Of a stretch of 64,000 nt of DNA, positions 31,510 to 49,300 are shown one piece after another. Source of the DNA: Ophelia neglecta (lineage: Eukaryota); contig OZ260663.1 in NCBI GenBank assembly GCA_965285935.1, positions 85,064,001 through 85,128,000 on the forward strand. Reading direction: 5' to 3'. Below the pieces are notes generated by a model. The model did not search any database. It was not told the DNA's origin and saw only the letters and a program-made list of their open reading frames with translations. Position 1 is the stretch's first letter; the number at the start of each line of letters is the position of its first letter. The position numbers and the translations under genes are program-made.

Positions 31510-31619
31510 AAAAATCGGCCATTATTAGCAACACATATAGAATGGCGATGATTGAAAAAAATGGCGACGAACAGCGATAAATGGCAACGAGATAAACGAC
31601 GATGAGATGAATGGTAATG

Positions 31620-32320
31620 AACGGTGATGACAGGTGATGTATTGTGATGTATTGTGATGAACAGAGACTTATGGCGAGGAACGGCGATGACAGGTGATGT
31701 ATTGTGTTGATCAGAGACTTATGGCGAGGAACGGTAATGACAGGTGATGTATTGTGTTGATCAGAGACTTATGGCGAGGAACGGTGATGACAGGTGATGT
31801 ATTGTGTTGATCAGAGACATATGGCGAGGAGCGGCGATGACAGGTGATGTATTGTGTTGATCAGAGACTTATGGCGAGGAGCGGCGATGACAGGTGCATG
31901 ATGTATTGTGTTGATCAGAGACTTATGGCGAGGAACGGTGATGACGGGTGATGTATTGTGTTGATCAGAGACTTATGGCGAGGAACGGTGATGACGGGTG
32001 ATGTATTGTGATGATAAGAGGCTTATGGCGACGAACGGCGATGACAGGTGATGTATTGTGAAGATCAGAGACTTATGGCGAGGAACGGCTGTGAAATGAG
32101 ATGTATTGTGATGAACAGAGATTATGCCGATGAACGGTGATGACGGGTGATGTTTTGTGTTGATCAGAGACTTATGGCGAGGAACGGTGATGACGGGTGA
32201 TGTATTGTGACCAAATGCGGTGAATGATGATGAACGGCGACGAACGACGATGAGAAGATTGGTAAGGAACGGTGATAACAGGCGATGTATTGTGATGAAC
32301 AGAGATGATTAGCGACGAAA
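31620..32320. repeat. 50-bp minisatellite (~12-13 copies, degenerate edges)
   Basis: Unit GACAGGTGATGTATTGTGTTGATCAGAGACTTATGGCGAGGAACGGTGAT; CAGGTGATGT recurs at 31691, 31741, 31791 and 31841. Confidence 0.92.
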
Positions 32321-34834
32321 GGCGATGAATAGATATAGGAACGGGGACGAACCAGAATGAACCATTAGGAATCTCAATGGATTGTGGTGAACGATGACGA
32401 ACCACGAGGAATTATCATGAACTATGCTGTATTACAATGTGATAGGTAGGGAGAACTTTTATGAACGTTATTGCATCAGACAGATGTAGACTGTACAGCA
32501 ATATAACATGATATAACTTAATGTTTGCCATCCACTTAATAAAAGTAATACAGTTTATATCCATCTTACAGTTTTAATAGTACAAATAAGAAGAGGAGAG
32601 TAGAAGATTATAAAAATACTGTGCGAGGGTTATACAAGGTTAATGTTTGCAAAAAATAGTTATAAAACAAAAAGTAAATTTCATTAAAATCAATCTAACG
32701 GTAAAAACTGTTGCTACTGGCAACAAACAGTGAAAAATGTGGTTAAAAAATGTAACCAGTTGTTGATAGGGGGAAAAACAATCGGAAGGAGTAAGCAAGG
32801 CTTAAGAGAGTATTAATTCGAATTAATTAATTGCATCATACGATGCCATATATTGCTACTTCCGTTCCTTCAGGCTGCCCTGTTGGCATAATCCTGAGCC
32901 GGGGGAGGAAGGGGGGGGGGGCGGTAACGTCACATACCCTGGCCTCTCGCAGCTATAGTTAACTAGCATTGGCTGCAACAGGAGGCCGGGGCGGTTAAAA
33001 GCGGGAATTTAGTTAAGGAGCGACGATATTGGTTGGGAAGGCATGTTTTTGGATAATGTTTGGGTTGTTACGAACAATTGGTTATGAAATTACTGTTTAG
33101 ATAACTGCAATTGTATCACAAATTTATAGAAATATGGCGTGATTACTCGAGAGAAATACAGAGAAATTACGGAAACTTGTCTTTGAAAACCGGTGGTTGA
33201 ACATTAGCTCGACTGACAGCTACGTGCCAAAACTTAGGGGTTTTCCAAACGGCTTGGGCCGTGCAAGGTAAAACACTAACGGATAGTAAAAGAGAAGACC
33301 GTACCACCCATTCCACATTATAGAAAAATGTCACCTATGTGCAAGTGTCATAAGTCCGCGGCCATTTTGAATGCTAGGAACGGAAATGAATCCTTCTTTT
33401 AATAATAATTTAAAAAAAGTTCGTTTATATGTTAATATATTAATAAAACTTGCCTGCCGTGAGAAATTTCCAGTATTTTGCACGGCTTGTAAGTAGTAGC
33501 AAGGTAGTAGATCAAGTATCTGTTTGCTAAGCTTGATCATTAAAGTAAATAACAATAATAAGCAAGTCGGGTTTCTACGTCAAACACCACTTTCCCTTTA
33601 AATATCATTACTTAGTAACATTCATAAGTTCATTTTATGCGTATAGTTTCTAGTGGCAGCGGTTAGTTAAGACGGAAAAGCCGGGTCATTGTCAAAACTA
33701 ATTGAATGTGTTTTGGAGACACGTGCACGTACGTTAGATGCCGGTCATCTTTTTTTAGCCCACCGGGACGACAAATTATATGGAAATAAGGCCTAGAGAG
33801 TAAAAACATGAGGGCTACATCCCGTTAAATTTACAGTGGCCGGGCCTAGACTTAGTGTACGGGTATGTACGGGCCTACACACACGCTTACACATACGGAC
33901 ACGGAGGTTTTGTACCGCACAAGTGAGTGTTCATTAAATTGTTAGTGAACCGTGTCTGTTATAAAAAAAAACACGATAAGCCGGGCATGATATAATCCAC
34001 TGCAAGGCTAAATAGGCCCCCCAGTGACTAACACCGTTAAGTGGGCATCTGGTGAAGCGACCCCTGTCCATGCCCAAAAACGGCCCGTGCTGTAAAACCT
34101 TTAAAATCCGCCCGCCTCCAACATCGGTGCGCTTTATCAACTAACTGTAGACTAATGCTCCAACCCCCCAAAAATATTGTTCATTTATTTTTATACAAAC
34201 TTAAGCTGCCAATGATTAACTTTCATCGTTTGAAAAGAGAATTGTAAAATAAAATGAATGTTCTGTCAATATTAAGGAAGGGTTAATTATCTTTCACCAG
34301 GGGGAATATATTGCCCCCCCCCCCCCCCTCAGTCTTCTATCGACCACATAAGGTCTGTTCCACCCCACCCCCACCCCTTCCCTTAGGGGTATGGTGGAAT
34401 TTTTTGTCCTTGCTCCCCCACCCCACCCCTTAAAGATTTGCCAAAGAGTCCTGTCCACCTCTGATTTGCCCCCCCCCCCTCCGGCATTAATAATGAACAC
34501 TCTTAATTTCTATTATAAATATTTATAGAATTTTATCATGGTATTTTAGTTTATACTGTACCGTTATTAAATGACAGAAAGTAGCTAGATCAGCAGTCCT
34601 TATACACTGGTCAAAAAGGTATGCATTCAAATAATTTTGGATAGCCATACGTGGCTTAGACTTTTTAAATCTAGCATGCGTATAACACATATCGGCCTGG
34701 GCAGACTGGTTCCATGCAGCATATTTAGCAGATTAAATACTGAACACGCCTCGCTTAGACTGGAGTGTTTAGTTTAAACGGTATCGAGCTTTATGGAACA
34801 GAATAATCGCGACTGTCGTTAGCGAGTTAACTCG

Positions 34835-35120
34835 AAGTTACCCCCCAGTCAAACTGAAGTTACCGGCCCATGTCCAATTGTTACCCCCAAGCCAGACTGA
34901 AGTTACCCCCAATTCAAACTGAAGTTACCCCCAAGTCAAATTGTTACCCCAAGCAAGACTGCAGTTACATCCAAGTCAAACTGAATTTACCCCCAAGTCA
35001 AACTGACGTTACCCCCAAGTCAAACTGTTACCCCCAAGTTAAACTGAAGTTACACTCAAGTTACACTGAACTTTACCCCCCAAGTCAAACTGAAGTTGCC
35101 CCAAGACAAGCTGAACTAGA
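34835..35120. repeat. ~19-22-bp minisatellite
   Basis: Unit approximately TTACCCCCAAGTCAAACTGAAG, about 13 copies. Confidence 0.88.
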
Positions 35121-46319: not shown

Positions 46320-49300
46320 TCAAACAGGATTGGAGTTGGTATCTGCCGCTTTTTGCCCCCCTGGGCCTGTTCCAAAAACTCTCAGTAGTTTTGGTAGATA
46401 TCTGTGAATAAAAAAGGGGTAATAATTAAAACTGTTCCTTTACTCCTTAAGACACTTACCTTGAAAATACTGCAAAAGTTTTAAACCATTAATGGAACTT
46501 TGGAAATCATGTTTTCCCCAAATATTTTAAAACTCTTCAATTTTGCTGACCTTAATGTTCCCGGTTTTGGCATACAAATATGTCGCTGACCTGTAATTTT
46601 GCATATTAGAGGCTTCCACTGTCCTCACTGGTCTCTAATTTTCATGAGGCTTTTAATTTTGTAGTTTTGACCCTAAGGGGCTCAGGAAAATATAAGGGTG
46701 TTACAGTATACTGGAAATCATTTGAACTGGGAAGAAAAGCAAAATTGAAACAACTGTCATTACTGGTATTTTTTTCTAATTTGACCTTGATATAATAGGT
46801 CTAATTCAAATTTAATCCCTTCATACTGCTTCACTGTTAAGACCCCCTGTTATGAAGCTTGGTCGCTCTTTGAGACCCTCCTTTTCAAGCACACCACTAT
46901 TTTTGACCATTTTTCAAGCAAACATATTTAGTTGCCATGGCAATAGATTATTTTTCAGCATAGGCCGAAATTTTGGTACGGCGGTCCCCTGAGGGGCTTT
47001 ACAACAATATAGATACAGATGGCATATAAACAATGTCTTGTCCTAGGTTTTATTTCAATCCCACCTTATGATGTATAAAATTTGTTTGTATTCATGCAAA
47101 GTGCCAAATTTCATAATTAACACCCTCACAGTGTCTGGCAAAACAATCTAAAAGTGTATAGTATAAAGGGCTGCAATGCAGCATGATACCTGTGATATAG
47201 CTTTCATAAATCTGCTGCTTCAGTTTTTACGCACCTTATTTCAATGACTGGTCCTGTTAAAGGGAAGGGATCTCCGTCTATGTTGACTACATCACTACTA
47301 CTTCCTACACGAGCGATCCTGTACGCCTTCACTTGATATTCTGTTATGTGGTCAAAGTCAAACTGGGAAGAAAGCAATGTAATCTTGTAACAAGAACACA
47401 CAATATCAGTCAGGGGATCACACCTGTGTGGAGGATTAGGGATGCACCATTAGATAACCGGGGAGGAGAGGAAGGGGGGGGGAGGAAGAAAAAATTACTA
47501 TGGAACAAAATTTTTCTTAATATTAAAAATTTTTTCTCTCCAAAAAAAAAATTTTTAAAACTAATTTTAGCAGTTTTTTATCCGCAGCATAGGGAAGCAA
47601 CCTTTTTTTCCTTCAAAATATGGCCAACACACATTGTTTATCAAACATTTTCCACTGCAACCCCCTCCCCCCCCCCTCCCAAGTTCAAGTTCATAGCCTT
47701 AAACTTATATATTGCAGTAGGATCACTTGCTATTTAATGTCTAATTATGACTAAACACTGGTCAAAACAGGGTCAAATCAGACCCAGATAAAAATCATGA
47801 AGATAATGATTTGGTGTACAACAATAAAGGAAGTGTTTATAGTTTTTTTCATTGTCTAGAATGTTGGCCAGAACACTTTAAAATCTGGAGTTCCTCCCCT
47901 AAAATTTACCAAGCAAAGGACAGAGCGATAATTGACCACCTTTCTGGAGGTTTAGCGCCAAAACAGTTCATACTACTTCGTAAGCAGTCTTGATCATATA
48001 TTTCACTTGAAGTATTTCAGTTATTCTGACGTACATATAAAAATCTAAACCGGAGGTACCCATTGCAATCCTAACATGTTGTGTAACTGCTTACTCGTAA
48101 CATGCGAATCAGCTTTCAAAATCATAAAAATATTTCTCTGAACACTTCTTAATATGCATGTGATTTATGATATCATTATAAAATGTTATTTAGTAGAAAA
48201 TACAGATAAAGCAGTTGTAATTAACACATCAATGTACTACTACGTTAAAATAACGGCATCTACATTCAATCATTCATTATATGTTGTTTGGAGCAGCTAC
48301 ATGCAAGCCTTTATAATGTGCTTCCTGAGAACTAAAATAATATTCTCCAATGATAAAATTGTTCGTACAGGTGTAAATTCGTTGTAAAGAATACTTGGCT
48401 GCAAAATTAAAACTTATCAATATCATATTAGCATGTATAACTAGCGGCGGCGGCGGCGGCGGCACTTCTGAAAACATAATATCCGCATTTCGCGGATATA
48501 AATAGGGCCTACTGTGAAAATCTTTGTAACAACCGGTGGTCTCAGCGGGGTTTGAACTCGCTACCCTTGGTTCTCCAGCCAACAACTCTACCAAGTTTGC
48601 CAAAGGGGTAACCCCTCTAGCCAAGCTAGTAGGAGTGTTGTGATCATGCACCAGTGGCCATGACCTGCTCATTCATCTCTGTTACATTCTCCCCCCTACT
48701 GAGAACCACGTCCCCGTGGTGGTATGGCCACAGGACGGCTGTTGGGTTCGAGACTCTCGGTGAGACAGTCCCCTACTAGGCTCCATTGTAACAACCGGTG
48801 GTCTCAGCGGGGTTTGAACTCGCTACCCTTGGTTCTCCAGCCAACAACTCTACCAAGTTTGCCAAAGGGGTAACCCCTCTAGCCAAGCTAGTAGGAGTGT
48901 TGTGATCATGCACCAGTGGCCATGACCTGCTCATTCATCTCTGTTACATCTTTCTAGAAATTAGCCATGAAATTCGTCATGAAATTTGCCAGGAAATTAA
49001 AATCACGCAGTGTCATTTTTTGTACAAACCAATTTAATCCAGCACGAACAGTTTTTAACGTTACAGTTCAGGAAAACAGAGGATAAAAGTAAAAACAAAA
49101 TGGCAGATAATACAGTGTGTGAAGTTTTCAGTTCTATGAATTCAAGTACTTACGTCTGTCTCCTAAAATATTTTGCAAGAAGCCACCGAGTTTGTTTTGA
49201 AAGAAGTATTTTTGTTCATTTTAAGAATTTAAAGTTGTGATTGTGAAATGCTGCATGTTCAACCCAAATTAATATAAATGCTCTCTTTGATTAGATAAAA

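What the first reader, a model, noticed from the sequence alone, without database searches (positions are those of the whole stretch)
48525..48948. Young 424-bp TRIM whose LTRs carry a tRNA-derived Pol III promoter
Seen: identical LTRs, a 4-bp TSD, PBS, PPT and no coding sequence. Each LTR holds a tRNA-like cassette on the sense (minus) strand: A box at 48602-48591, B box at 48559-48549, and a TTGG/CCAA anticodon-like stem between them. The sense strand has no T4 run anywhere in the element; the first one is in the flank just past the TSD (48520-48517), as expected if Pol III must read through it. Established: Cassandra TRIMs carry 5S-derived LTR sequence, and Helenus TRIMs carry tRNA-like LTR sequence with 4-bp TSDs in animals. 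Inference: a recently active, probably uncatalogued Helenus family, mobilised in trans. The 4-bp TSD argues against the 5-bp-TSD BEL element in this window being its partner.
Basis: partly seen in the sequence, partly recalled or inferred. Interest (0 to 1): 0.7.

Follow-up and report, generated by a model that had tools for sequence, protein, structure and literature searches.

The report
Helenus mini-retrotransposon hitchhiking several Gypsy families
This 424-base gene-less jumping element of the known Helenus kind is fused into single insertions with four different larger retrotransposon families at eight places in its genome, so it likely borrows the copying machinery of several helpers, most of which start copying from a different tRNA than it does.

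Summary
Real and young: identical 162-nt LTRs, 100-nt interior, 4-bp TSD, 222 LTR-motif matches genome-wide. It is a new family of Helenus (tRNA-cassette TRIMs, Kojima 2024); no matching motifs in that paper's Data S1. This scan has met Helenus often elsewhere (129 notes, at least 25 genomes), so the kind is ordinary.

New here:
(1) Its PBS matches 19 nt of the host's intron-bearing tRNA-Lys(UUU).
(2) 10 of about 97 examined sites abut Gypsy sequence, none the window's BEL. In 8 of the 10, one 4-bp TSD brackets the whole TRIM-Gypsy fusion; several junctions look like reverse-transcription intermediates. Seven of the 8 involve tRNA-Thr-primed families, one a tRNA-Lys-primed family, so PBS matching would misname most observed helpers.
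(3) Subfamily changes avoid boxes A/B (0 of 21 columns; 12 of 28 between them) and an upstream hairpin-palindrome-TTT module also seen in bivalve, nemertean and fish Helenus.
(4) Linkage breaks between LTR positions 49 and about 116, bracketing the predicted Pol III start.

Pol III transcription is untested.

The parts
48787..48948 (-). 5' LTR, 162 nt, TGTAACA...GTTACA
48525..48686 (-). 3' LTR, identical to the 5' LTR
48521..48524 (+). TSD copy TCTT
48949..48952 (+). TSD copy TCTT
48767..48785 (-). PBS, 19 nt complementary to the 3' end plus CCA of the host's arrayed, intron-bearing tRNA-Lys(UUU) with U73
48687..48697 (-). polypurine tract
48853..48864 (-). box A in the 5' LTR (LTR 85-96); 3' LTR copy at 48602-48591
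   Evidence: key positions intact in 89 of 96 LTRs
48811..48819 (-). box B core in the 5' LTR (LTR 130-138); 3' LTR copy at 48557-48549
   Evidence: intact in 92 of 96 LTRs
48799..48871 (-). tRNA-derived cassette; 44 of 69 ungapped identities to host tRNA-Thr(UGU); no cloverleaf
48864..48898 (-). hairpin + GGGG-TTA-CCCC stem + TTT module just upstream of box A (LTR 51-85); 3' LTR copy at 48636-48602; predicted start/stop or dimerisation element
   Evidence: 0 of 34 variant columns over LTR 51-84; fold z -3.35 for the 66-nt region; similar module read by eye in Data S1 of PMC10886601
12527..19819 (+). BEL element in the window, 670-nt identical LTRs, 5-bp TSD CAAGG; not found joined to the TRIM

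Best explanation
It is a young, multi-copy, non-coding LTR retrotransposon of the Helenus kind that carries a tRNA-Lys primer site and is likely transcribed by RNA polymerase III from its LTR and likely copied and integrated inside the particles of several unrelated Gypsy families. Shown: structure, copy number, 4-bp TSDs, primer match, box conservation, and eight TRIM-Gypsy fusions each inside one TSD. Inferred: Pol III starts near LTR 72-78; the RNA is co-packaged with Gypsy RNA; it is primed by its own tRNA-Lys(UUU) even with tRNA-Thr-primed helpers; the Gypsy integrase accepts its TGT(A)AC...GTTACA ends. Least certain (about 0.3): the upstream hairpin-palindrome-TTT module ends transcription leakily in the 3' LTR, where the hairpin is transcribed, but not in the 5' LTR, where it lies upstream of the start, giving a short terminal repeat.
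For: Copies: 49 matches from 40 of 316 candidates scored; 222 LTR-motif matches against 0 control. Exact 4-bp TSD in 18 of 27 two-LTR or tandem records and 21 of 30 solo LTRs; exact 5-bp in 1 of each set. PBS matches 19 nt of tRNA-Lys; Gypsy-A/B/D PBS match 20/18/18 nt of tRNA-Thr(UGU), sharing only 7 nt with it. One TSD around the whole fusion at 8 of 10 Gypsy-abutting sites: CACA, TGTA, TATG, ATAG (A); TTAG, TACC (B); CAAA (C); TTAG (D). Junctions fall at copied primer sequence or short microhomology; one carries a 43-nt complement of tRNA-Thr, CCA included, running into the TRIM LTR. No TRIM LTR end is followed by a Thr-type or Gypsy-C-type PBS (0 matches). Variant columns: boxes 0 of 21, inter-box 12 of 28 (Fisher p 0.0004); hairpin module 0 of 34, rest of U3 10 of 43 (p 0.002), in 96 LTRs not chosen by an LTR motif. 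Linkage r2 0.82 within U3, 0.80 within the tRNA part, 0.11 between them, 125 LTRs.
Against: No transcript evidence was available. Box A reads TGGCA, not the Helenus TRGCY, and young copies have AGTTC, not GGTTC. Fusions prove shared particles or shared integration complexes, not that ordinary copies are made by those helpers. Fusion counts are biased, because Gypsy-A shares a 12-nt or longer LTR-end/PBS stretch with the TRIM that favours switching, so Gypsy-C (tRNA-Lys) may still be the main helper. Variant columns and haplotypes are not independent events, so the p-values overstate. The sites examined are a motif-selected subset, not a census. Three Ts are below the canonical T4 Pol III stop.
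Confidence: 0.8

Rival explanations
1. One cognate helper (Gypsy-C, tRNA-Lys-primed, similar U5 end) makes nearly all ordinary copies; fusions with the tRNA-Thr families are rare accidents of passive co-packaging.
For: Gypsy-C has a 19-nt PBS match to a tRNA-Lys(UUU) isodecoder, 4-bp TSDs, and an LTR end resembling the TRIM's. PBS-matched pairing is the published expectation (PMC10886601 section 3.6).
Against: Only 1 of 8 TSD-bounded fusions involves Gypsy-C. Its primer isodecoder (G73) differs from the TRIM's (U73). BLAST finds no more than 12-14-nt matches between the TRIM and A, B or C.
Confidence: 0.3
2. The fusions arose after reverse transcription, by end-joining of linear cDNAs, nested insertion or ectopic recombination, and say nothing about co-packaging.
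For: The head-to-head (ATAG) and tail-to-tail (TTAG) fusions join at terminal 2-7-nt overlaps, as end-joining could.
Against: Nested insertion would leave the TRIM its own TSD, and recombination between loci would leave unmatched flanks. Here one TSD brackets each fusion. Junctions at copied primer tRNA, above all the 43-nt tRNA-Thr copy, are reverse-transcription intermediates.
Confidence: 0.12
3. Pol III reads through the 3' LTR to the first T4 in the flank, and the upstream module has another role such as dimerisation or packaging.
For: Read-through is compatible with strand transfer. Tandem arrays exist. Cassandra makes multi-unit transcripts (PMC7215508 passage). T4 appears in only 5 of 129 LTR records.
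Against: T4 absence is expected by chance. Many Helenus consensus LTRs have T4 or more just after box B (read by eye). The flanking T4 distance varies from 4 to 835 nt.
Confidence: 0.5
4. The boxes are relics; the element is transcribed by Pol II or passively from flanks.
For: The boxes deviate from the Helenus motifs, and there is no functional test.
Against: Subfamily variation avoids both boxes. No TATA or AATAAA/ATTAAA signal in the element. The linkage break brackets the predicted Pol III start.
Confidence: 0.12

Closest known systems
Helenus (TRIMp3), Kojima 2024, PMC10886601 (whole main text read; supplement parts 1, 5, 6, 7, 10, 11 of 11 plus two motif searches)
   Same: Size in range (311-1263 bp), two LTRs, PBS, PPT, tRNA-like cassette with boxes A/B, 4-bp TSD as in animal families, tRNA-Lys primer as in many bivalve families. 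By eye the LTR core resembles Helenus-1_CGi, -2_CVi, -3/-6_SaGl, -4_MiYe and nemertean -1_LiLo.
   Different: Family motifs are absent from Data S1; PBS starts TGGAGCC, fitted to a U73 tRNA-Lys. The paper infers helpers from PBS similarity; here helpers are seen as TSD-bounded fusions, 7 of 8 with a different primer tRNA. The words 'hairpin' and 'chimer' do not occur in its main text.
Cassandra and Ajax TRIMs (PMC7215508 and bioRxiv 10.1101/2023.07.14.548913: passages; original Cassandra paper not held, known through PMC10886601)
   Same: Pol III-type promoter inside the LTR, tandem arrays; Cassandra's autonomous partner is described as unknown.
   Different: 5S-derived rather than tRNA-derived; plants or nemerteans; 5-bp TSD for Ajax and pear Cassandra.
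Chimeric non-autonomous LTR elements of sugar beet (PMC13570524: passages)
   Same: Template switching and chimeras among non-autonomous families.
   Different: The chimeras in the passages seen are TRIM-TRIM; partners there are assigned by coding remnants or sequence similarity.
biv-TRIM (PMC6934838: passages)
   Same: Animal TRIM, no partner found by similarity.
   Different: No canonical PBS; no tRNA cassette in the LTR in the passages seen.

Membership tests
Helenus | Short non-coding element with two LTRs | tested here: met
   424 bp, 162-nt identical LTRs, 100-nt interior; no ORF of 150 aa or more over it
Helenus | PBS and PPT in the interior | tested here: met
   19-nt match to host tRNA-Lys(UUU) plus CCA; PPT
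Helenus | tRNA-derived sequence in the LTR with conserved boxes A and B | tested here: met
   44 of 69 ungapped identities to tRNA-Thr; boxes 0 of 21 variant columns
Helenus | Typical motifs TRGCY...YGG and GGTTC (stated for 'most' families) | tested here: inconclusive
   Box A is TGGCA...TGG; GGTTC in the older subfamily, AGTTC in young copies
Helenus | 4-bp TSD in animals | tested here: met
   18 of 27 and 21 of 30 exact 4-bp TSDs
Helenus | Mobilised by Gypsy (animal families; inferred in the paper) | tested here: met
   8 TSD-bounded fusions with four PNMA-gag, RT-RH-IN Gypsy families; genomic evidence, not an assay
Helenus / TRIMp3 | Transcription by Pol III | not testable with these tools
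   No RNA data; the paper itself calls this unvalidated for Helenus
Catalogued Helenus family | Identity to a published consensus | tested here: not met
   0 hits for 5 motifs and for 3 of 6 shorter ones in Data S1; none of the consensus sequences read matches. Repbase and Dfam could not be searched.
Cassandra / Ajax | 5S rRNA-derived LTR sequence | tested here: not met
   No 5S match in Rfam at E up to 10
Functional tRNA gene | Cloverleaf with 7-nt anticodon loop | tested here: not met
BEL-dependent TRIM | 5-bp TSD, shared PBS or fusions with the BEL | tested here: not met
   only the window's BEL family was tested

The most novel reading that the evidence does not exclude
Animal Helenus elements are generalist hitchhikers. 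They bring their own tRNA primer into the particles of any compatible Gypsy family, so neither LTR nor PBS similarity defines the helper. A hairpin-palindrome-UUU module kept from molluscs and nemerteans to fish sets the ends of a Pol III transcript or pairs it for packaging, which would also point to one origin for this animal subgroup rather than repeated SINE captures.
Probability: 0.35. Interest if true: 0.72.

Novelty: new member of a known kind. Interest (0 to 1): 0.5.

Why it matters
The Helenus paper says it is not known how a TRIM's dependence on its helper is maintained, and it assigns helpers by matching primer sites; Cassandra's helper is described as unknown. This genome gives direct fossils of the partnership: single insertions that are part TRIM, part Gypsy, from four families whose RT-RNase H cores are only 54-72% identical. 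Most use another primer tRNA. That makes helper specificity testable with named families and offers a general way to find TRIM helpers from assemblies. The conserved upstream module gives a concrete, mutable candidate for how a Pol III transcript acquires the terminal repeat that LTR replication needs.

Tried and rejected
RNA evidence: no RNA holder listed. Empty-site check: contigs from 3 runs of one sample laid on the left flank and one LTR did not show an empty allele; inconclusive. Read support for one fusion junction (Gypsy-B to TRIM): no listed contig bridged it, and the list was cut; inconclusive. Fold-back products as a map of the RNA 5' end: two U5-U5 fold-backs centre on the GGGG-TTA-CCCC stem (L037, L002) and no U3-U3 one was found; two cases are too few, and a third inversion (L046) centres elsewhere. 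Self-priming of the Tf1 type was considered because LTR 52-61 can pair with the PBS, and dropped once the 19-nt tRNA match was found. A helper carrying the TRIM's exact PBS was not found: most of the 55 exact 16-mer matches were fetched or fall on known TRIM copies, and all inspected were TRIM-derived; of the additional matches, 20 were fetched, giving 4 Gypsy-type sites with a G73-type Lys PBS, 8 TRIM-derived and 8 unrelated. Helpers with a shorter match would be missed. Two Gypsy-abutting sites (L076, L105) showed no bracketing TSD in the DNA fetched. The 'no T4' and 'anticodon stem' arguments were rejected. Literature searches for prior reports of TRIM-helper fusions or the hairpin module found none, but cover only the held library. 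A search for intron-bearing metazoan tRNA-Lys gave nothing relevant. The host organism was not identified, so host-range novelty is open.

Full report
1. Observation. The element occupies 48525-48948 on the minus strand: two identical 162-nt LTRs around 100 nt, flanked by TCTT on both sides. The cassette aligns without gaps to the host's tRNA-Thr(UGU) at 44 of 69 positions but is not a tRNA. The proposed anticodon stem has an 8-nt loop and is missing from the older subfamily.

2. Family. A DNA search gave 49 matches with 40 of 316 candidates scored. An LTR motif gave 222 matches against 0 for the control, and the PBS 16-mer gave 55. There are full copies, solo LTRs, tandem arrays and inversions. 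Exact 4-bp TSDs flank 18 of 27 two-LTR or tandem records and 21 of 30 solo LTRs; a few records look like duplicated loci. In 14 TSD-bearing copies the two LTRs differ at 0-6 positions, at none in 5, so activity is recent.

3. Primer. The PBS is complementary over 19 nt to the 3' end plus CCA of a tRNA that Rfam scores at 61 bits and whose arms and anticodon read as Lys(UUU) with an intron and U73. This is the host's main Lys(UUU) gene: 58 of 61 exact matches lie in one array. That explains why the PBS starts TGGAGCC rather than the TGGCGCC of published Lys-primed Helenus.

4. Promoter constraint. Among 96 distinct LTRs found by whole-element or PBS searches, columns with a shared variant number 0 of 21 in the boxes, 12 of 28 between them, 0 of 34 in the module upstream of box A and 10 of 43 in the rest of U3. 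The columns are not independent, so the Fisher values (0.0004, 0.002) are indicative only. U3 and tRNA-part haplotypes are each tightly linked (r2 about 0.8) but nearly unlinked to each other (0.11); all four block combinations occur (65, 26, 19, 6) and 9 of 125 LTRs are mixed. Strand transfer at the RNA 5' end would put crossovers there. The interval, LTR 49 to about 116, contains the expected Pol III start 7-13 nt before box A. This is indirect, and amplified lineages inflate the counts.

5. Upstream module. Just before box A lie a hairpin, a GGGG-TTA-CCCC stem and TTT. Reading the published consensus LTRs by eye, TTT directly before box A, usually preceded by a stem-loop and a short self-complementary stretch of varying sequence, appears in 54 of 76 non-wasp animal LTRs, across bivalves, nemerteans, coelacanth and ray-finned fish. 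It is absent from the brachiopod and ctenophore ones. This count was not made by a tool. The paper's main text has no 'hairpin' and favours multiple origins. My inference is that the module acts as a position-dependent leaky terminator or as a dimerisation site. Degenerate T-rich Pol III terminators exist (PMC3141230, abstract and one section), but nothing I read shows that a hairpin plus T3 suffices.

6. Helpers. Of 141 locus records with TRIM sequence (98 clusters by flank, about 97 sites), 10 sites abut Gypsy sequence and none abuts the window's BEL. At 8 of the 10, a single 4-bp TSD brackets the whole fusion. With Gypsy-A: C1 2.289-2.300 Mb (CACA), C1 13.503 Mb (TGTA), C2 107.82 Mb (TATG), C2 108.19 Mb (ATAG; duplicated at 108.59). 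With Gypsy-B: C5 59.69 Mb (TTAG), C50 (TACC). With Gypsy-C: C5 110.87 Mb (CAAA). With Gypsy-D: C1 126.02 Mb (TTAG). The other two sites join TRIM LTR plus PBS to antisense A-like sequence (86-87%), with no TSD found. All four families have PNMA-type gag and RT, RNase H and integrase in Gypsy order, with RT-RNase H cores 54-72% identical. They share no more than 12-14 nt with the TRIM where tested (A, B, C).

7. What the junctions say. Several fall where plus-strand strong-stop DNA ends: after 2, 6, about 12 or about 20 nt of copied primer site, at short microhomologies, or inside the LTR-end/PBS stretch shared with Gypsy-A. At C2 107.82 Mb the Gypsy-A 3' LTR is followed by a 43-nt complement of tRNA-Thr, CCA included, which runs into the TRIM LTR; the normal PBS match is 20 nt. 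These are signatures of reverse transcriptase switching templates with both RNAs present (established retroviral mechanism, recalled). Gypsy-A, -B and -D have tRNA-Thr(UGU) primer sites (20, 18 and 18 nt). Gypsy-C has a 19-nt site for a G73 tRNA-Lys isodecoder. No TRIM LTR end was followed by a Thr-type or C-type site, which fits the TRIM keeping its own primer.

8. Limits. Fusions show contact, not the share of ordinary copies each helper makes; shared LTR-end/PBS sequence biases the count towards A. The junctions were not confirmed in reads. Pol III use is untested. The host was not identified. Repbase and Dfam were not searchable; supplement parts 2-4, 8 and 9 were covered only by motif search.

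9. Comparison and verdict. The element meets the testable defining features of Helenus and is not among the published consensus families, so it is a new member of a known kind. This scan holds 129 notes with the words Helenus and TRIM in at least 25 genomes, including unchecked notes of a Helenus-Copia fusion and of a yeast TRIM using several helpers; these are leads, not support. The added value here is eight TSD-bounded fusions that name four helper families, seven of them primer-mismatched, plus the conserved upstream module. Interest 0.5.

Noticed in passing
G000 C8:12.58-12.74 Mb (L086-L100, L109); L154-L157: The host's tRNA-Lys(UUU) genes inspected carry an intron of about 21 nt and mostly U73. 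58 of 61 exact matches lie in a tandem unit of about 1931 bp shared with tRNA-Phe(GAA); of 5 genes inspected elsewhere, all had the intron, 4 had U73 and 1 had G73. From recall, introns in animal tRNA-Lys and U73 are unusual. The retro-element PBS implies this tRNA is matured with CCA after U73.
   Followed up: partly
window 48820-48833 (LTR 116-129): The young subfamily's inter-box stretch is 11-12 of 14 identical to tRNA-Thr(UGU), against 6 of 14 for the older type. It may be a re-capture from the helper's primer tRNA, but a similar stretch occurs in Helenus-4_MiYe; untested.
   Followed up: partly
G000 C2:21.3 Mb and C2:103.0 Mb: Tandem clusters of tRNA-Thr(UGU)-type matches; two loci of the 21.3 Mb cluster confirmed by ARAGORN.
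   Followed up: partly
G000 C2:108.19-108.23 and 108.59-108.62 Mb: Tandem Gypsy-A arrays with a 7218-bp period, capped head-to-head by a TRIM LTR; the locus is duplicated with identical flanks.
   Followed up: partly
window 48440-48505: The flank beside the element holds a short very-high-copy repeat (summed contig depth above 100,000); the two haplotypes of the flank also differ.
   Followed up: no
L043 (G000 C1:147.365 Mb): A 17-nt tandem repeat built from the LTR's hairpin module follows a truncated copy.
   Followed up: no
window 12527-19819: BEL element with identical 670-nt LTRs and a single stop between two long frames.
   Followed up: partly
window 60420-61900, 31545-32330, 34880-35100: Tandem repeats of 29, about 50 and about 22 nt.
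   Followed up: no
L083 (G000 C2:20.528 Mb), L064/L065 (C12:41.1-41.3 Mb): TRIM interiors preceded by other, unidentified sequence ending like an LTR; possibly further helpers.
   Followed up: partly
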